From Candidatus Poribacteria bacterium (GTDB lineage: Bacteria > Poribacteria > WGA-4E > JAJDTR01): a stretch of DNA of 64,000 nt. The stretch is from the NCBI GenBank assembly GCA_965222225.1, contig CBDCTK010000002.1, positions 1,088,001-1,152,000 on the forward strand. The letters run 5' to 3'. Of this stretch, positions 45,397-58,589 are shown piece by piece; position 1 is the stretch's first letter; each line of letters starts with the position of its first letter. The notes under the pieces are model-generated. The model was given only the letters and a program-made list of their open reading frames with translations. It ran no database searches and was not told the origin of the DNA. Made by a program: the position numbers and the translations under genes.

Positions 45397-47031
45397 ATGA
45401 TTGTTTCCGATGCTATCGGCGAGATTCTGAAGGCTGAAGGCACAGAGTATTTATTCACTTACCCAGTTAATCCTATCACCGAAGGTGCAGCCAAAGCGGG
45501 AATCCGCCCCATTGTAGTCCGCCAAGAAAGAATCGGGCTGCACATGGCGGATGCACTTAGTCGGATGAACTCGGGCGAGAAGATTGGCGTGTTTTGTATG
45601 CAACATGGGCCCGGAGCGGAAAACGCATTCGGAGGCGTCGCCCAAGCCTATGGAGACTCCGCACCAATCGTGGTATTGCCGGCAGGTTATAGTCGAGACA
45701 AAACAAACGTCGATCCCAACTTCAGTTCGCTGATAAATTACCGTAATGTCACTAAATCTTGCGAGCAAGTTACGATGCCGGCCTCCGTTCCGGCGGCGCT
45801 TAGACGCGCGTTCATGCAGGCGAAAAACGGGCGTCCGCGTCCGACGCTAGTAGAGATACCCCAGGATATATTCAGTGCGGAATTGCCTGGGGAGTTGAAT
45901 TACCGACCCGTTCCAAAACTGCGTCGCGCACCTGATCCGAACGAAATACCAAGGATTGCCAAAATTCTGATTGAGGCCAAGCGACCAGTTATTTATGCAG
46001 GACAGGGTGTCCACTACGCTAAGGGGTGGGAAGAGTTGAAGGAGTTGGCAGAATTGTTGGAAGCTCCAGTTACCACAAGCCTACAAGGCAAGAGCGCGTT
46101 TCCGGAGAACCACCCTTTGTCCCTCGGCTCTGGTGGGCTTGCCATTCCAAAGATGGTGCACGATTTCTTGCAAACTTCAGACGTTATTTTCGGCATTGGG
46201 TGCAGCTTCAGCAGCACCGGCTTCGGGGTAGCCATGCCGAAGGGCAAAACCATTATTCACGCCACGCTCGATGAAGCAGACATCAACAAAGACCTAGAGG
46301 CAGACTATGCCTTGGTTGGCGATGCGCGCCTGACGTTGCAAGCACTTATTGATGAAATCCACGATCGGTTGGGTGGTAAACTTCGAGGCCATGGTAATGG
46401 GGTGGCTCAAGAAATCAGTCAGATTAAGGCAGGATGGCTGGGTGAGTGGAACCCAAAATTGACATCGGATGAAGTTCCTCTTTGTCCCTACCGCGTGATC
46501 TGGGATCTGTTGCATACCGTGGACGTGGCGAATACGATCATTACTCACGATGCCGGTAGTCCACGCGACCAACTCTCACCTTTCTGGCAACCCACGACTC
46601 CGCTTTCGTATATCGGCTGGGGAAAAACCACGCAATTGGGTTATGGGCTTGGCTTAGCAATGGGGGCAAAGTTGGCGCGACCGGACAAACTATGTATCAA
46701 CGTCTGGGGCGACGCAGCTATCGGCTTCACGGGCATGGATTTTGAGACAGCCGCTAGAGCCGAGATTCCTATCCTTTCCATACTGTTCAACAATTTCTGT
46801 ATGGCTATTGAGTTAAGAATTATGGCGCTTTCGACCGAGAAATTTCGTAGCACGGACATATCCGGCAACTACGCTGACATGGCAAAGGCTTTCGGCGGGT
46901 ACGGGGAACGGGTCGAAACTCCAAACGAAATAATCCCCGCCATCAAGCGGGGTATTGAGCAGACAAAGGAAGGTCGCCCCGCCTTATTGGAATTCATTAC
47001 ATGTAAAGAAACCGAGATTTCACGGTTCTAG
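45397..47031 (+). CDS. TPP-requiring enzyme, acetolactate synthase-like family
   Basis: RQERIGLHMADA, QHGPGAEN, GRPRPTLVEIP and GDAAIGF..NN motifs. Confidence 0.88.
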   Translation: MIVSDAIGEILKAEGTEYLFTYPVNPITEGAAKAGIRPIVVRQERIGLHMADALSRMNSGEKIGVFCMQHGPGAENAFGGVAQAYGDSAPIVVLPAGYSRDKTNVDPNFSSLINYRNVTKSCEQVTMPASVPAALRRAFMQAKNGRPRPTLVEIPQDIFSAELPGELNYRPVPKLRRAPDPNEIPRIAKILIEAKRPVIYAGQGVHYAKGWEELKELAELLEAPVTTSLQGKSAFPENHPLSLGSGGLAIPKMVHDFLQTSDVIFGIGCSFSSTGFGVAMPKGKTIIHATLDEADINKDLEADYALVGDARLTLQALIDEIHDRLGGKLRGHGNGVAQEISQIKAGWLGEWNPKLTSDEVPLCPYRVIWDLLHTVDVANTIITHDAGSPRDQLSPFWQPTTPLSYIGWGKTTQLGYGLGLAMGAKLARPDKLCINVWGDAAIGFTGMDFETAARAEIPILSILFNNFCMAIELRIMALSTEKFRSTDISGNYADMAKAFGGYGERVETPNEIIPAIKRGIEQTKEGRPALLEFITCKETEISRF

Positions 47032-47266
47032 ATACAGACGTTGATAGGGTGGATTTTTCGGTCTTTCGTAGCCACCCAAGGACGTGGTATGGCTAGGAGA
47101 AACTGATTTTAGCAAAGAACTAATGAGCGTGGAACAATTACTTTTCTCAAACCCAGTGACATCTGACGGCAGACATTGTGCATCAGAGACTTTGATTTAT
47201 GGTCTAACATCTTGGGCAATCTGGGTAGTCGCCTATTCTATTCCTTGGAGGTTCTGATTAGGTACT

Positions 47267-48277
47267 ATGGCTGATTTGGATCGAGACGAGGTTTGGAACA
47301 ATCGTGCTGCTCAAATACGACATTTCTGCGTCGAACGCGGCATTACGAAGCTCCTTCATTTTACACGAATTGAGAACCTACGTAGCATTCTGCGAGAAGG
47401 CTTATTGAGTCGTGAGACACTGGATTCACGCGGGCAACAATACTGTTTCAACGACCAGGACCGCGTTGACGGTTATAAAAATGCGGTTTGCCTTAGCATA
47501 AGTTTTCCAAACTACAGAATGTTCTACTCAATTAGGGAAGAGAAGAAAGGTGAGGAGGTTAATGATGCCTATTGGACTGTTCTGCTCCTTGACGCTGAAG
47601 TCTTATGGGAATTGGATTGTGCTTTTTGTCACACAAACGCCGCTGCTAGTGCCATGACATCCATTTCATTGGATGAGCACAAGGAATTCAATGCTCTAGA
47701 GGCAATGTTCTTGAATGCTCCCGAGAAGCGCCGGGCACTTGATAATAATGAGCCGACAGACCCACAAGCGGAAATACTAGTGTTTAGCCCAATTCCGCAA
47801 AATCATATCAGAGAAGTCCATTTTTGGGATGGAAGCATCTTGAGACAGTGGTTGTCTGACCATCACCCATCTTTTGATGAACGGCTTGACGAAAATCAGA
47901 AATTTTTTCGACCGAGGCACGACTGGGAGATATGGAAGAGCGATGATTTGAAGAACGATGATACATCTGAGGTGCAAGAGCATCGGAACTTTTTTGAGAA
48001 TCCTGAACCACGGATAAACGACGATACATATGATTCCCAATTGAAAACTCTACCACTTTTTGTGCCATATTTAATGAGATTTCCATACGTCAAAGCCATT
48101 GACCTAGAGGTCCATTGGTACTCTGGACAGCCACAAAAGTCCATCAACTCTTTTCACCAAGCTGCCAAGAAGAATGGTGTCTCTCCCGTACTTGAGATTT
48201 CAAGAGAATCAACGTCGCCACTTGGGGTTTCATTGTGTGCGTTCAATCTGAAATTTCGAGCACCAAGTGGTCAATAG
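47267..48277 (+). CDS. darT: DarT1-type DNA ADP-ribosyltransferase toxin with C-terminal NADAR-derived extension (frame continues past TAG to 48643)
   Basis: LLHFTRIENLRSILREGLLSR, FNDQDRVDG, CLSISFPNYRMF, TNAA and PTDPQAEILV motifs. Confidence 0.85.
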   Translation: MADLDRDEVWNNRAAQIRHFCVERGITKLLHFTRIENLRSILREGLLSRETLDSRGQQYCFNDQDRVDGYKNAVCLSISFPNYRMFYSIREEKKGEEVNDAYWTVLLLDAEVLWELDCAFCHTNAAASAMTSISLDEHKEFNALEAMFLNAPEKRRALDNNEPTDPQAEILVFSPIPQNHIREVHFWDGSILRQWLSDHHPSFDERLDENQKFFRPRHDWEIWKSDDLKNDDTSEVQEHRNFFENPEPRINDDTYDSQLKTLPLFVPYLMRFPYVKAIDLEVHWYSGQPQKSINSFHQAAKKNGVSPVLEISRESTSPLGVSLCAFNLKFRAPSGQ

Positions 48278-48643
48278 GTAACCGTCGAATGCGCTTTTGA
48301 AGGAAGTAAAGTGTTTGAAAATGGCGGACCGTATCATGAATTGTACTCAGTTCCTCCTAGCGAGGCGAACAACGACAGTCGTTTACGGTATTCAGGAAGG
48401 GTGATTGCCTTTAACTTTTTCGGTAAAGAGTACCCGATTGAATCCAAAGATGAGTTCTACAACCGACTGTACATAACAGCACTGAAACAGGAAGGACGGC
48501 ATTTCGCTCGAAGACTTCAAAAGTTCGAGGGTTTTTCAGACATAGGTTTTAATCCACAGCGCGCTAACAATTGTCCTGCCCGCGCCACTGCACTATTTGT
48601 AGCATTGTGCCGAATCCAATGGTCTGATGAGTTCAAACTCTAA
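48041..48643 (+). pseudogene. Degenerate NADAR copy in frame with darT, interrupted by one TAG (48275-48277)
   Basis: LEISRES..LGVSLCAFNLKFRAPSGQ*VTVECAFEGSKVFENGGPY..FSDIGFNP..NCPARA aligns over most of 48807-49481. Confidence 0.8.
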
Positions 48644-48806
48644 AACCGATTATATCACGTAAGCAGTCCGCAAGGAGTTTTTCTATTTTCCACGTTCCAG
48701 GAAGAGTTGCTGTGTGGGCAGGTTACACTATGCTTTATCTCGTGTTTCGAAGGATTTTGCAGAACCCTGACTAGATTTTATAACTACTTGAAGGACGTTG
48801 AAAACA

Positions 48807-49481
48807 ATGGCGAAACGACCTGTTTTTGCACCGAATCCGAGCGAATTTCCTTATGTCGAAGTCATTGATGTAGAATTTCAATGGTATCCCGGATTTGCGA
48901 AATCACAGCTACAGAAATCTATAGATTCATTACACCTAGCCGCTAAAAGCCGGGGCATTAACCCCATTTTGGAGATATCGGGAAAATCGGCATTTGCACT
49001 TGGGGTTTCACTGAGTGCGTTCAATCTGAAACTTCAAGCACTAAGCGGCCAGACGATGAGTGTTGAATGCGCATACCAAGGGAGCAAGGTATTCGAAAAA
49101 GGCGGGCCATATCACGACCTGTACACGGTGTCAAGTAGAGAGGCGAAAACCGACGAACGTATTCAGAATTCGGGGGAGTTAATTAGTTTTATCTTTTGCG
49201 GTAAAGAATTTCCAACTGAGCCCAAAACGGCTTTCTACGATTCTTTATATATAACAGCACTATGGCAAAATAAGCAGAATCTAGCGCCTGAACTCGTAAA
49301 GTTTCAAGGTTTTTCAGATATAGTTTTTAATCCGCAACGTTCTTTCAATTGTCAAGCGCGCGCCGCTGCAATATTTGTGTCGCTGTCTCAAAATCAGTTG
49401 CTCAATGAAGTAGCAATGCAAGATCTGGATGGCTGTATGCGACTCCTGACAGATCAAAAACCACTCCTCCAATTTTCGTAA
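48807..49481 (+). CDS. darG: DarT1-associated NADAR antitoxin (DarG1)
   Basis: MAKRPVF, QKSIDSLH, LGVSLSAFNL, SVECAYQGSKVF, REAK.D.R, PKTAFYD, FSDI.FNP and NCQARAAA motifs. Confidence 0.88.
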   Translation: MAKRPVFAPNPSEFPYVEVIDVEFQWYPGFAKSQLQKSIDSLHLAAKSRGINPILEISGKSAFALGVSLSAFNLKLQALSGQTMSVECAYQGSKVFEKGGPYHDLYTVSSREAKTDERIQNSGELISFIFCGKEFPTEPKTAFYDSLYITALWQNKQNLAPELVKFQGFSDIVFNPQRSFNCQARAAAIFVSLSQNQLLNEVAMQDLDGCMRLLTDQKPLLQFS

Positions 49482-49650
49482 ACTGACGCTTTAAACGCGA
49501 GTTAGCAAACCTCGCCCAATTGTTTTCTGAGCATATGGGGCTTGAACGGCGAATGCCTGAAAAGGTAGTGACCAATACGGGTGGGAACAAACGGTTTTTC
49601 GATTTGGCAACTGATATTCCTAGTTACTTTAGTCCAAATTGCCACCTAAT

Positions 49651-50514
49651 TCAACTGGCTTTCTTCGCAAAGACAGGATTTTCTAGCAAACTCTGGACTT
49701 CATAGATGGAGCCCTTGCGTGCTGCGTGCGGAAGCGGCATTCGAACTGGAATTGATTCGATACGCGGTTGGTTCGTCGGCTCGCCGCGTAGAACAAACGA
49801 GTTAAACGTTTCCAAGTCAGGAATCCCTGATAAAGGCCACGCATCAATAGCACAATACTGGCTAAGCAGCAGACGACGTGGGTTGCTAGACGTGTTTGGC
49901 GCCGAACCGTGCACCGTGCGCACATGATGAATTGAAATCCCACCGGCTTTAACTTCAACAGGTACCGCGCCATCCGAACTGAAGTTGGAATCGGTAACGG
50001 CACCGACAAATTCTCCATTCTGATGGTGATTGTAGGTAGGCCCCTTATGTGATCCCGGAATGACCATCAGGGCACCATTTTCAACCGTCATGTCATCGAA
50101 CGACACACCAACAGCCAACAGATCGTCGTTAGTGTGCGGATAGAACGCCCAATCCTGATGCCATTCTACCGGACTTCCGTACTCCGCATACTTCATATTG
50201 AGTTTCTGACCGTTGAAACGAAGACCGTTACCGATTAACTGCGAGACAATGTCAAGAATTTTTTCATGTCGCAGTGCCCTGTCGTAGACGATGTGTTCCA
50301 TATGGGGGTTTTTGAGACGCCGCACGCGAGGATCTACTGGTGAATGACTAGGCTCAAGGTCAAAGACGCTCGTGTGTTCGGTTAACGCTCGAGACTTCTC
50401 AACAAACTCATCGGTTACCCCTCGCAGGTCCGCGACCTCGTCGGCAGTCAGTACGTCTTCAACGCCGATATAGCCATTCCTATGGTAGAAATCAATCTGT
50501 TCTTGCGTTAACAT
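49651..50514 (-). CDS. Phytanoyl-CoA dioxygenase (PhyH) family oxygenase
   Basis: LTQEQIDFYHRNGY, WHQD, ENGALMVIPGSH and HGSAPNTSSNPRR motifs. Confidence 0.92.
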   Translation of the reverse strand: MLTQEQIDFYHRNGYIGVEDVLTADEVADLRGVTDEFVEKSRALTEHTSVFDLEPSHSPVDPRVRRLKNPHMEHIVYDRALRHEKILDIVSQLIGNGLRFNGQKLNMKYAEYGSPVEWHQDWAFYPHTNDDLLAVGVSFDDMTVENGALMVIPGSHKGPTYNHHQNGEFVGAVTDSNFSSDGAVPVEVKAGGISIHHVRTVHGSAPNTSSNPRRLLLSQYCAIDAWPLSGIPDLETFNSFVLRGEPTNQPRIESIPVRMPLPHAARKGSIYEVQSLLENPVFAKKAS

Positions 50515-56911: not shown

Positions 56912-57714
56912 AAGCACCTATTGTCCTGGATACGCTAGCGATCTGACTACGAACTGTTCAGCGCTCACAACCACGAGTCAATTAAGACGTACGTCAGATT
57001 GTAGCAATTGAATCCATCGGATGTCGGGAGCTATGTATTCGAAGGAGAAGCGTCGAACCATGAAGTTGTGAGCGATCGTCTACGTAAACACAATCAATTG
57101 GAATCATTCGGTGGGATTTACGAGAACTGGATAATCAAATCAGATTGGAGGGTGTAACTTTAAACTACGTCAAAGACTGGCAGGGAGGGGAGAAAAATCT
57201 TGTCATTTTTCAAGCAGCTCGAAAATATGCTGCTGTTGTCACATATCTAGTCTTAAACCTAACAAACAAAACTTATTTGGGCAGAAAGAATGCGATTTCA
57301 ATATACTCTCCTACTTCGTCTCAAAATCTCTCATTTTTTGAGCAACAAGGATGCCGTATCCCACATTATAGATTTTCGTTTTCCATTCCGGCGATGCTTC
57401 TAGGTACGGCTTAATGACCCTACCCTTGTCTCCCCACAAGACATCATCAATAATAACGATAGAGTTCGCTCTGAAAACCTTCTCACAAGTCTTGAACTTT
57501 TTCCAAATGCGATCTGCATCATTCACGGAATCAAATAAGGCGAGATGGATTGTGTCCAAGACATCGGCGTCGACCATTTTCCTTAAATTATCAATCGCGT
57601 CACCTTCAACATAGTTAATATACCCAAGTTGCTACCTAATTGAATTGAAAATCCCCGGGGTTTTCGTTAGAGTTGAGGAGTTCACTATTACCTCAATACC
57701 CTAAAGGAGAACCC

Positions 57715-58589
57715 ATGGACATTCAAATTGTAACTGTTTTCTGTTTGTGTGACGCTCTCTTAAAAGCATTCAACCATCAACCAGACCCACAATCTCGGAT
57801 GTCTGATGCCGAAGTTATGACGACTGCACTGGTTGCAACACTCTTTTTCGGTGCCAACTTCCAAACCGCTCGTGACTTTCTCCAAACTCACGGCTATATT
57901 CCAAACATGCTCTCAAAGAGCCGGTTCAATCGACGGCTTCACCGAATTAAACCCATGTTCATCACACTGTTCGAAATCTTAGGCGAAAGTTTTGTACAAC
58001 TCAACAAGCAGAAACGCTATGCCGTAGATACTATACCAATTGTTGTTTGTGACAATTTCCGCATTCGTCGCTCAAAAATCTACACCAATGAAACATTTCG
58101 AGGCTATCAGTCGTCCAAACGTCGGTATTTCTACGGCTTAAAGATTCATCTACTGGTTACCGCTCAACGACAGCCGGTTGAATTCTTTTTGACCCCGGGT
58201 AACACCGGTGATGTTGAAGGCTTACAATACTTTGACTTCGACTTACCACCGGGCAGCCGTGTCTATGGAGACAAAGCGTACAATAACTACGATTAACTGA
58301 GCGAATAGCGAAGGCGATAGAAATTCCTATAGAAGACAGTATTGCCGAAGTTGGGGTGGAGTTGAAACCGATACGCAAGAAGAATTCAAAGCGGCAATAT
58401 CCACCATGGGAAGCCTATCTAGTCAATTATTATCGCAAGTCTGTTGAGACGACTGCGAGCTTGATTGAGAGGTTGTTGCCGCCTTCAATTCATGCGGTGA
58501 CACCACAGGGATTTGAACTGAAAGTCGTCTTGTTTGTAGTGGCTACCAGTATCAACCAATATGAACCCACTCAGAATTCACCCATATAG
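57715..58589 (+). pseudogene. IS982 transposase disrupted by a 35-bp insertion
   Basis: MSDAEVMT, SRFNRRL, VDT, YFYGLKIH, GDKAY and RKSVET motifs; single lesion at 58291-58325. Confidence 0.9.
58291..58325 (+). repeat. 35-bp unit inserted in the IS982 transposase
   Basis: GATTAACTGAGCGAATAGCGAAGGCGATAGAAATT. Confidence 0.88.

What the first reader, a model, noticed from the sequence alone, without database searches (positions are those of the whole stretch)
47267..49481. DarT1 toxin fused to a degenerate copy of its own NADAR antitoxin via one in-frame amber codon, followed by an intact NADAR
Seen: the darT frame stays open through an acidic linker into a NADAR paralogue, hits TAG at 48275-48277 at a variable position (SGQ*VTVEC versus SGQTMSVEC), then continues in frame to 48643 (458 codons). 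Both copies share DNA tracts (CACTTGGGGTTTCA.TG.GTGCGTTCAATCTGAAA; TTGAAAAC at their starts), indicating local duplication. The fused copy differs at conserved positions (YQGSK>FEGSK, REAK>SEAN, CQAR>CPAR, 4-aa in-frame deletion) yet has no frameshift. Known: DarT1 ADP-ribosylates guanine in ssDNA, NADAR reverses it, and DarTG1 is a two-gene anti-phage system. Inference: a variant with a tethered pseudo-enzyme acting as autoinhibitor, reader or decoy, either recently truncated or regulated by readthrough.
Basis: partly seen in the sequence, partly recalled or inferred. Interest (0 to 1): 0.75.

Follow-up and report, generated by a model that had tools for sequence, protein, structure and literature searches.

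The report
Broken toxin-antitoxin fusion with spare antitoxin
A sponge-symbiont bacterium carries a DNA-modifying toxin gene that long ago fused to one copy of its antidote gene and kept a second free antidote next door; in this strain a single-letter change has cut the fused antidote short, an ordinary loss that circulates in the wild population.

Summary
ORF 47267-48277 holds DarT1, an acidic linker and the first 75 residues of a NADAR domain. It stops at TAG 48275-48277, and the same frame stays open to TAA 48641-48643 (458 codons). A complete free NADAR gene follows at 48807-48481+1000 (48807-49481).

The fusion is a real, old architecture. Fourteen uninterrupted DarT1-NADAR proteins turned up, from at least four independent origins. 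In relatives the NADAR gene often starts in frame right after the darT stop, so one stop loss makes a fusion.

The layout "fusion plus free NADAR" is syntenic in three species of this Candidatus Poribacteria genus. The two NADAR copies are only 56% identical. The fused copy is under purifying selection (pN/pS 0.27-0.39). It keeps the catalytic Glu, Lys and Asp but has lost 11 of 65 family-conserved residues, including the rescue-essential lysine.

The TAG is one base from AAG. It is a genuine segregating nonsense allele, seen in two protein variants and in contigs of three runs, alongside an intact allele in two of them. Other broken alleles also exist. The genome has no amber suppressor tRNA and TAG is a common stop, so readthrough is unsupported.

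Verdict: a new variant of DarTG1, and in this strain an ordinary loss-of-function allele of a semi-redundant domain.

The parts
47267..48277 (+). Truncated darT1-NADAR' gene as it stands in this strain (336 codons plus TAG)
   Evidence: ORF list and sequence. Pfam DarT plus the N-terminal part of NADAR-DarT1. The exact 336-aa protein is on record as P0121, on a contig of 5,635,097 bases, which is contig C2 of this genome.
47267..47941 (+). DarT1 ADP-ribosyltransferase domain (residues 1-225)
   Evidence: PF14487 at residues 31-185. E. coli C7 DarT1 structure 8baq aligns at E 8.3e-33. H31, F32, T33, N62, D63, R66, D68, S77, M85, F86, N124, Q167 and E169 are present. The AF2 model of intact allele P0124 is confident over residues 5-224.
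47939..48031 (+). Acidic linker (residues 225-255), the former C-terminal tail of DarT1
   Evidence: pLDDT is below 50 over residues 225-255. It is homologous to the free acidic tail of unfused relatives that ends ...DIPF before the stop.
48038..48274 (+). First part of the fused NADAR' domain (residues 258-336), still translated
   Evidence: PF22397 profile positions 4-79. This part contains none of the catalytic residues.
48275..48277 (+). In-frame amber codon (codon 337), a segregating nonsense allele
   Evidence: Sister alleles have Lys (6 of 15) or Thr (7 of 15) here, and 2 of 15 stop. Contigs of runs X3 and X7 hold both T and A at 48275, X1 holds T only, and X15 holds A only.
48278..48643 (+). 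Remainder of NADAR' (codons 338-458 plus TAA), cut off from translation in this strain
   Evidence: PF22397 positions 85-196, E 3e-40. It holds E341 (48287-48289), K348 (48308-48310), N368 in place of the rescue lysine (48368-48370) and D425 (48539-48541).
48644..48806 (.). Spacer of 163 bases between the fusion and the free NADAR gene
   Evidence: Sequence. GAAGGA lies 11 bases before ATG 48807. Promoter-like and terminator-like sites are no more frequent than in shuffles.
48807..49481 (+). Free-standing NADAR antitoxin gene (224 codons plus TAA)
   Evidence: PF22397 at 276 bits. G. lovleyi NADAR structure 8bat matches at E 2.4e-57. E87, K94, K114 and D171 are present. All 15 of 15 listed sister alleles are full-length and 97-100% identical.

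Best explanation
This is a DarTG1 toxin-antitoxin (anti-phage) module of a Candidatus Poribacteria genome, in a three-part layout.

Origin (inferred from relatives). The darT1 stop codon was lost long ago. In relatives the NADAR gene begins in the same frame a few codons after that stop. The toxin therefore now reads through its acidic tail into a first NADAR copy (NADAR'). A second, canonical NADAR gene lies 163 bases downstream.

History (shown). The layout is inherited vertically in at least three species of the genus. NADAR' has been kept open and under purifying selection. It is nevertheless strongly derived, and it has lost the lysine that E. coli C7 NADAR needs for rescue.

Roles (inferred). 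The free NADAR is the working antitoxin, and NADAR' is an accessory that can be lost.

This strain (shown). A single base change from AAG to TAG at codon 337 truncates the fusion before all three NADAR' catalytic residues. It is a genuine nonsense allele that circulates in the natural population beside intact alleles, and it is one of several independent disruptions of this gene.

Consequence (inferred). The strain makes a catalytically competent DarT1 with a useless C-terminal appendage, and the free NADAR neutralises it in trans. Functionally it has reverted to an ordinary two-gene DarTG1. The stop is not a regulatory readthrough signal.
For: Architecture
- Both domains are confirmed.
- 14 of the 120 listed homologues are uninterrupted DarT+NADAR proteins.
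- 5 of 76 genome loci hold an uninterrupted fusion (L014, L018, L022, L026, L030), and 3 of those 5 also have a second NADAR in the locus.
- On the tree of 92 NADAR domains, the fused state needs 7 changes, of which at least 4 are forced by well-supported branches.
- In 15 of 47 unfused loci with a downstream NADAR, the NADAR frame opens directly after the darT stop in the same frame.

Age and constraint
- The locus is syntenic in G000, G005 and G002, with flanks 83-88% identical.
- The fused copies form one clade (support 100) on a stem of 0.55, against 0.15 for the free copies.
- pN/pS of NADAR' is 0.39, 0.36 and 0.27 in the three pairs, with binomial p of 0.0011, 0.00022 and 8.6e-07 against neutrality.
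- NG86 dN/dS is 0.23-0.36 for NADAR' against 0.17-0.20 for the free NADAR.

Derived state
- At 11 of 65 columns that are at least 90% conserved in 74 free NADARs, all fused copies of the genus differ. These include K60E and K114N.
- K115 of E. coli C7 NADAR is dispensable for catalysis but essential for rescue (paper passages).

The stop is real and recent
- The 90% cluster lists 10 of 15 members at 454-458 aa and 5 of 15 shortened: 336 aa twice, 410 aa twice and 263 aa once.
- P0124 and P0126 are 99% identical to the window and intact.
- Contigs of X3 and X7, which come from other studies, carry both the TAG form and an alternative form at similar depth. X1 carries TAG only.

Free NADAR
- All 15 of 15 listed alleles are intact, with E87, K94, K114 and D171 invariant.

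DarT1
- Every residue reported as essential is present.

No recoding
- No CUA-anticodon tRNA is found among 52 tRNAs, and TAG ends 704 of 2330 long frames.
Against: - Purifying selection on NADAR' (dN/dS about 0.3) shows it is not simply dispensable over long times, so 'accessory that can be lost' may understate its role.
- In two samples the TAG allele sits at roughly half the depth. That pattern could also reflect selection rather than drift.
- All read evidence comes from assembled contigs, not raw reads, so allele frequencies are rough. X1 may be the window's own source.
- Nothing here shows that DarT1 is active, that the free NADAR rescues it, or that the locus defends against phage.
- The guanine-contact residues K74 and Y75 of E. 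coli C7 DarT1 are S88 and I89 here.
- Low-level spontaneous readthrough of TAG cannot be excluded by sequence analysis.
- The three dN/dS pairs share branches and are not independent.
Confidence: 0.68

Rival explanations
1. The tethered NADAR' is a selected regulator of the toxin. It could be a cis 'eraser' that removes ADP-ribose from the cell's own DNA next to the enzyme. It could also be an autoinhibitory or sensing module, as in single-chain toxin-antitoxin defence proteins. On this reading the free NADAR is the bulk antitoxin, and the TAG and other null alleles change toxin potency and are kept as a polymorphism.
For: - NADAR' is under purifying selection across three species.
- It keeps catalytic E341, K348 and D425 while changing surface-type residues such as K60E, K114N, D145N and W146R.
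- The pattern of a long stem followed by short branches fits a change of function followed by conservation.
- The combination of fusion plus free NADAR arose three times in Poribacteria (the genus clade, L022 and L018), and in the two older cases the fused copy is the diverged one.
- A Selenomonadaceae genome has the fused NADAR as its only PF22397 hit, so a fused NADAR can be the sole antitoxin.
- The TAG allele is at intermediate depth in two samples from other studies.
Against: - 5 of 15 listed alleles are shortened by at least three different lesions. A sister species has a TAA after the DarT core. Loss is therefore tolerated repeatedly.
- Q345E replaces a residue that is 100% conserved in the 74 free NADARs. 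It is present in 10 of the 13 listed alleles that cover the site, which looks like stepwise decay.
- The AF2 model gives no confident arrangement between the domains (pTM 0.48, linker pLDDT below 50).
- No functional test was possible.
Confidence: 0.2
2. The whole module is decaying. DarT1 is already inactive or unexpressed in this lineage, so lesions anywhere in the gene are neutral, and the free NADAR persists only by inertia or for another role.
For: - Disrupted darT1 genes are common among relatives: frameshifted DarT in L021 and L008, and TAA plus loss of F120 and N124 in G002.
- P0128 lacks the DarT part, and P0123 and P0130 carry T33K in the invariant HFT motif.
- The DarT part is a mosaic, with dS of 0.7-0.8 against 0.19 for NADAR'.
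Against: - In the window every DarT1 residue reported as essential is intact.
- DarT dN/dS is 0.26-0.33.
- The free NADAR is invariant at its catalytic residues in 15 of 15 listed alleles and has the lowest dN/dS, as expected if a live toxin must be neutralised.
- Metatranscriptome assemblies hold the locus. This is only a weak hint, because contigs in an RNA library do not prove transcription.
Confidence: 0.08
3. The TAG is decoded part of the time (programmed readthrough or suppression), so the cell makes both a short DarT1 and a long DarT1-NADAR'.
For: The frame stays open for 121 more codons after the stop, and those codons still encode a well-formed NADAR part.
Against: - The genome has no amber suppressor tRNA, and TAG is a frequent stop.
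- The site is Lys or Thr in 13 of 15 listed sister alleles, so the stop is a recent mutation and not a conserved signal.
- The other shortened alleles end at different places.
- The open frame after the stop is explained by the allele's youth, since P0124 and P0126 are 99% identical to the window.
Confidence: 0.03
4. The stop is a sequencing or assembly error.
For: It is a single-base difference from sister alleles.
Against: - The TAG form is assembled independently in contigs of X1, X3 and X7, which come from three studies.
- A second 336-aa protein variant (P0125, which differs by Y83H) comes from two other contigs.
Confidence: 0.01

Closest known systems
DarTG1 (DarT1 with NADAR antitoxin; E. 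coli C7 and Geobacter lovleyi systems, Schuller et al. 2023, PMC11543638)
   Same: - The same two protein families in the same gene order.
- DarT1 aligns to structure 8baq (E 8.3e-33) with the essential residues present.
- The free NADAR aligns to structure 8bat (E 2.4e-57) with E88, K95, K115 and D171 equivalents present.
   Different: - Here the toxin is fused through its tail to an extra, diverged NADAR copy, and the module has two NADARs.
- The paper describes DarT1-associated NADARs as mostly single free-standing domains (passage read).
- The guanine-contact residues K74 and Y75 are S88 and I89 in the window.
Single-chain DarT1-NADAR fusions without a second NADAR nearby (Selenomonadaceae P0016/L030; Poribacteria P0006/L026)
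   Same: The same domain order, and probably the same origin by loss of the darT stop.
   Different: - Their fused NADAR keeps the family consensus, including the rescue lysine, and sits on short branches.
- In the Selenomonadaceae genome it is the only PF22397 hit, so there it must be the antitoxin.
- In the window's genus the fused copy is derived and a free copy is present.
DarTG2 (DarT2 with the macrodomain antitoxin DarG)
   Same: The same logic of a DNA ADP-ribosyltransferase toxin with an enzymatic eraser as antitoxin (introduction passage). One relative, P0005/L018, even carries a Macro domain in front of DarT1-NADAR.
   Different: - A different antitoxin fold and a different target base (thymidine).
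- The NCBIfam DarT equivalog scores 26.8 bits against a cut-off of 150.
Fused toxin-antitoxin defence proteins such as CapRel SJ46
   Same: Toxin and antitoxin domains in one polypeptide, where the antitoxin part can gate the toxin.
   Different: - That antitoxin domain is a non-enzymatic inhibitor and phage sensor.
- Here the fused part is an enzyme fold, a second free antitoxin exists, and no gating has been shown.

Membership tests
DarT1 (guanine-specific ssDNA ADP-ribosyltransferase) | Sequence membership: Pfam DarT above its cut-off and similarity to a solved DarT1 | tested here: met
   PF14487 scores 67.8 bits against a cut-off of 22.5. Structure 8baq, E. coli C7 DarT1, matches at E 8.3e-33.
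DarT1 (guanine-specific ssDNA ADP-ribosyltransferase) | Essential catalytic residues R52, D54, M71, N104 and E152 (E. coli C7 numbering) | tested here: met
   R66, D68, M85, N124 and E169 align to them.
DarT1 (guanine-specific ssDNA ADP-ribosyltransferase) | Guanine-contact residues K74 and Y75 | tested here: not met
   The window has S88 and I89. Sister alleles of the same 90% cluster have K and Y. The S-I form is also seen in other Poribacteria DarT1 sequences.
DarT1 (guanine-specific ssDNA ADP-ribosyltransferase) | Toxicity and guanine ADP-ribosylation of ssDNA | not testable with these tools
   This needs expression and biochemical assays.
NADAR-DarT1 antitoxin: free copy 48807-49481 | Pfam NADAR-DarT1 above its cut-off, plus equivalents of E88, K95, D171 and K115 | tested here: met
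   PF22397 scores 276.2 bits against a cut-off of 27. E87, K94, D171 and K114 are present and invariant in 15 of 15 listed alleles.
NADAR-DarT1 antitoxin: fused copy 48038-48640 | Uninterrupted reading frame | tested here: not met
   TAG at 48275-48277. The frame is intact in 10 of 15 listed sister alleles.
NADAR-DarT1 antitoxin: fused copy 48038-48640 | Catalytic equivalents of E88, K95 and D171 | tested here: met
   E341, K348 and D425 are encoded, but all lie after the stop in this strain.
NADAR-DarT1 antitoxin: fused copy 48038-48640 | Rescue-essential lysine (K115 of E. coli C7 NADAR) | tested here: not met
   N368 is found in all 7 fused copies of the genus clade. Lys is found in 97% of the 74 free NADARs and in 12 of 12 other fused copies.
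Toxin-antitoxin / anti-phage defence system DarTG1 | Toxin neutralised by the neighbouring antitoxin, and protection against phage | not testable with these tools
   Only gene linkage is shown. PADLOC recognises DarT (E 8.3e-09) but has no hit for either NADAR copy.

The most novel reading that the evidence does not exclude
The genus carries a three-part DarTG1 in which the toxin is covalently tethered to a re-purposed NADAR. That NADAR is catalytic but lacks the rescue lysine and other basic surface residues, and it acts in cis as a local eraser or gate. A canonical free NADAR serves as the bulk antitoxin. Natural null alleles of the tethered domain (TAG337, the end after residue 414) would then tune toxin potency and be maintained as a polymorphism in sponge-symbiont populations. 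The fusion also buries the SSB-tip-like ...DDIPF tail that half of the related DarT1 toxins carry, so fused and unfused forms could be directed differently to single-stranded DNA.
Probability: 0.2. Interest if true: 0.65.

Novelty: new variant of a known kind. Interest (0 to 1): 0.42.

Why it matters
DarTG1 is described as a two-gene system with a free-standing NADAR antitoxin. This locus and its relatives show three further things:
- The toxin and the eraser fuse repeatedly, and easily, because the two genes lie in frame.
- A fused eraser can be the only one in a genome.
- When a second free eraser is present, the fused one diverges and can be lost.

The wild population supplies ready-made alleles: the intact fusion, a form truncated before the catalytic residues, and a form truncated before the catalytic Asp. 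With these one could test whether NADAR works in cis and what the rescue lysine does.

For this particular window the amber codon itself is ordinary. It is a young loss-of-function allele, not a recoding signal.

Tried and rejected
- Programmed readthrough or recoding: rejected. There is no CUA-anticodon tRNA, TAG is a common stop, and the site is not conserved.
- Sequencing error: rejected.
- Recent duplication or gene conversion as the source of the shared DNA tracts: not supported. Overall identity is 65%. The best 36-base window has 33 matches and lies on the most conserved motif.
- Promoter and terminator scan of 46900-49700: 4 promoter-like and 3 terminator-like sites, against 4.3 and 2.7 expected from shuffles. 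This is uninformative.
- Defence island or mobile context: the neighbours are housekeeping genes.
- Metagenome scan for DNA of the closest alleles: 14 loci, none closer than 57% identity, so no low-divergence codon analysis was possible.
- The 8 substitutions of the X15 contigs in the free NADAR (3 non-synonymous) and the 5 after the stop in NADAR' (2 non-synonymous) are too few to compare.
- RNA-library contigs cover the locus, but contigs cannot show transcription.
- The AF2 model gives folded domains but no arrangement between them (pTM 0.48).
- Complex prediction for DarT against NADAR' was not available.
- Literature: I found no mention of natural DarT1-NADAR fusions in the passages read from PMC11543638, PMC11125620, PMC11825919 and PMC9503650. 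I did not read their supplements or the full texts.
Full report
**1. What is there**

- The ORF 47267-48277 (336 aa) ends at TAG 48275-48277. The same frame runs on to TAA 48641-48643, 458 codons in all.
- Pfam finds DarT (PF14487, residues 31-185). It finds NADAR-DarT1 (PF22397) split by the stop into profile positions 4-79 and 85-196. Read through with X, this becomes a single hit at 4-196 of 212 (E 1.1e-59).
- A complete NADAR-DarT1 gene follows at 48807-49481 (276 bits). ATG 48807 gives the conserved start MAKRP, and that exact protein is on record as P0135.
- The DarT part aligns to the E. coli C7 DarT1 structure 8baq (E 8.3e-33). The free NADAR aligns to the G. lovleyi NADAR structure 8bat (E 2.4e-57).
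- The two NADAR copies are 56% identical in protein and 65% identical in DNA. They are old paralogues, not a fresh duplication.

**2. Organism and context**

- Related loci carry titles of Candidatus Poribacteria MAGs.
- The window is part of a 5.70 Mb genome in two contigs, 94.9% complete, and it holds this one DarT locus only.
- The neighbours are housekeeping genes: thiamine-diphosphate enzymes, PhyH, NFACT and Wzy. This is not a defence island.

**3. The fusion is a real and recurrent architecture**

- Among the 120 listed homologues of the read-through protein, 14 are uninterrupted proteins with both Pfam domains. They come from Poribacteria, Anaerolineae and Selenomonadaceae, and one has an added Macro domain.
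- In a profile search of 1.84 billion cluster representatives, 4 of the best 150 span both halves (617-678 bits). The next hit scores 319 bits. A total of 5216 proteins match at E up to 0.001, so the fusion is rare.
- In 76 genome loci I scored stop-to-stop frames with my own DarT and NADAR profiles. Five hold an uninterrupted fusion: L014, L018, L022, L026 and L030.
- On a tree of 92 NADAR domains (74 free, 18 fused), the fused state needs 7 changes, at least 4 of them forced by well-supported branches.
- The reason is visible in unfused relatives. DarT ends, for example...DDIPF, stop, then 3-4 codons, then MAKRP of NADAR in the same frame. In 15 of 47 unfused loci with a downstream NADAR, the NADAR frame opens directly after the darT stop in frame. 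One substitution in the stop therefore makes a fusion.
- The window's linker (residues 225-262) is the homologue of that tail. TTGAAAAC in front of both NADAR copies is the remnant of the short leader.

**4. Fusion plus free NADAR**

- Three of the five genomic fusions have a second NADAR in the locus.
  - L018: the fused and free copies are nearly identical (branches of 0.017).
  - The window's genus: 56% identity, with a stem of 0.55 for the fused clade against 0.15 for the free clade.
  - L022: the fused copy sits on a branch of 1.69, next to its own free copy at 0.09.
- In the Selenomonadaceae genome the fused NADAR is the only PF22397 hit. The L026 genome has one further free copy on a small contig.
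- Where it stands alone, the fused NADAR looks like a normal antitoxin. Where a free copy exists, the fused copy drifts away.

**5. History in this genus**

- The locus is syntenic in G000, G005 and G002, with flanks 83-88% identical.
- G005 has an intact 466-aa fusion plus a free NADAR.
- G002 has a TAA after the DarT core (about residue 212). It has also lost invariant F120 and N124, and it holds a second canonical pair elsewhere.
- NADAR' evolves under constraint.
  - NG86 dN/dS is 0.36, 0.33 and 0.23 in the three pairs, against 0.17-0.20 for the free NADAR.
  - The share of non-synonymous differences is below the neutral expectation in each pair (p = 0.0011, 0.00022 and 8.6e-07; the pairs are not independent).
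- The part after the stop has pN/pS of 0.43-0.44 in the window's two pairs and 0.26 in the pair without the window. This is a small rise based on few changes.
- The DarT part has a much higher dS (0.7-0.8 against 0.19). One stretch (47643-47933) has no blastn match, so it is a recombining mosaic.

**6. Is the fused copy a pseudo-enzyme?**

- Schuller et al. 2023 report E88, K95 and D171 of E. coli C7 NADAR as catalytic. They report K115 as dispensable for catalysis but essential for rescue. I read passages for this and section 10 in full for the DarT1 residues.
- By spacing and alignment, the free copy has E87, K94, K114 and D171. The fused copy has E341, K348 and D425, but N368 in place of the rescue lysine.
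- Of 65 columns that are at least 90% conserved among 74 free NADARs, the seven fused copies of this genus all differ at 11: R4L, L42F, K60E, S70C, K114N, P139S, T141D/G, D145N, W146R, S179A/V and Q183P/S. The 12 other fused NADARs keep the consensus at almost all of these columns.
- Within the window's own species, Q345E replaces a residue that is 100% conserved. It is present in 10 of the 13 listed alleles that cover the site.
- The AF2 model of the intact allele P0124 gives two confident domains (residues 5-224 and 258-452). The linker between them is disordered (pLDDT below 50 over 225-255), and there is no confident mutual arrangement (pTM 0.48).

**7. The amber codon**

- The 90% cluster of the fusion has 17 members, of which 15 are listed. 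Seven are 458 aa, three are 454, two are 410, two are 336 and one is 263.
- The two 336-aa forms are the window's own protein (P0121) and P0125, which differs by Y83H and lies on two other contigs.
- At codon 337, seven alleles have Thr, six have Lys and two stop.
- P0124 and P0126 are 99% identical to the window. Apart from one further change in P0126 (D109N), they differ from it only in a small patch: K329T, S334N, stop337T and T339S.
- Reads were available only as assembled contigs.
  - X1 is possibly the source and has the TAG form only (depth 126).
  - X3 and X7 come from two other studies. Each holds a 110-base contig identical to the window and another with seven differences. Those seven match the P0124-type patch by kind and number of changes. 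The depths are similar (32 against 28.6 in X3; 15.9 of 32.6 in X7).
  - X15 is an RNA library from a more distant strain and has A at 48275.
- TAG is one base from the AAG of the Lys alleles.
- The 410-aa alleles end after residue 414, where the window has CGA. That codon is one step from TGA (inference). These alleles also carry T33K.
- The 263-aa form starts at the TTG of codon 196, so it lacks the DarT part.
- At least three kinds of lesion therefore circulate, besides the TAA in G002.
- The free NADAR is full-length and 97-100% identical in 15 of 15 listed alleles.

**8. No recoding**

- ARAGORN finds 52 tRNAs. None has a CUA anticodon, and one is tRNA-Sec (UCA).
- TAG ends 704 of 2330 open frames of 300 codons or more.
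- A GTG at 48311 behind an AGGAAG could restart translation. That product would begin after K348, so it would lack two catalytic residues.

**9. Reading**

- The window's strain most likely makes an active-looking DarT1, since all essential residues are present. The protein carries a disordered tail and a non-functional NADAR stub, and the free NADAR neutralises it in trans.
- The stop is a young, real, segregating loss-of-function allele of a domain that selection has kept over long times but that can be lost in the short term.
- The main rival cannot be excluded without experiments. In that reading the tethered NADAR' has a regulatory role in cis, and its null alleles matter for defence.
- I found no description of natural DarT1-NADAR fusions in the passages I read. 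Schuller et al. state that DarT1-associated NADARs are mostly free-standing.

**10. Side observation**

- This genome's own SSB ends ...DDDIPF.
- Of 138 fetched DarT-only relatives in which DarT is the last domain, 71 end in an acidic stretch followed by [IVM]PF. The same holds for 15 of 48 unfused DarT1 frames in the genome loci.
- The fusion has buried and degraded this tail.

Noticed in passing
L020, L024, L027, L033, L034, L049 and other loci (DarT1 C-termini); own SSB at G000:C2:2882417-2882866; window 47939-48052 (degraded homologue): Many DarT1 toxins related to the window's end in an acidic tail that finishes ...DDIPF. This is the same tip as this genome's own SSB (...PATDDDIPF). It is found in 71 of 138 fetched DarT-only proteins and in 15 of 48 unfused genomic DarT1 frames, and some carry the motif twice. 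It is also seen outside Poribacteria, in L056 (Campylobacterota) and L057 (Synergistota). It suggests recruitment to partners of SSB, or tail-mediated self-inhibition. No paper on this was found in one search, of which only the listing was read.
   Followed up: partly
window 47510-47580 (codons 82-105) and sister alleles P0123, P0130-P0132, P0134: Within a single 90% protein cluster, the DarT substrate-binding loop exists in two forms...RMFYSIREEKKGEEVNDAYW... and ...KLFYKYRVESG----NHVQW.... The positions that contact guanine in E. coli C7 DarT1 (K74, Y75) are S and I in the window but K and Y in sister alleles. A further segment (47643-47933) is replaced in other haplotypes and species. This is a recombining, possibly specificity-changing mosaic.
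   Followed up: partly
window 49470-49481: The window's free NADAR lacks the 11-residue tail PQEARQLDLPF that 14 of 15 listed sister alleles have. This is a 33-base in-frame deletion. The contig of run X15 carries the extra bases. The X3 contig across this place is identical to the window, so the deletion is not private to this assembly.
   Followed up: partly
L018:1652-7060 (and protein P0005): Two DarTG1 systems stand in tandem in another Poribacteria genome. The first is a DarT1 with a long N-terminal extension plus a free NADAR. The second is a triple fusion of Macro, DarT1 and NADAR. Its NADAR is nearly identical to the free one upstream.
   Followed up: no
proteins P0017, P0020, P0022, P0024 and many others; L047, L048: Many Poribacteria DarT1 proteins carry long N-terminal WD40-repeat regions. 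Two Latescibacterota DarT1 proteins have tails that look like ankyrin repeats by eye.
   Followed up: no
L021 (same genome as L007) and L008: In these relatives, DarT1 matches are split over two reading frames. These are frameshifted toxin genes beside intact NADAR genes.
   Followed up: no
window 57673-58296: A 207-aa ORF matches only part of a DDE transposase domain (profile positions 8-91 of 155). It is probably a transposase fragment.
   Followed up: no
G000:C2:1593669-1593762 (contig not verified; coordinates as printed by ARAGORN): A tRNA-Sec gene (anticodon UCA) is present in the genome.
   Followed up: no
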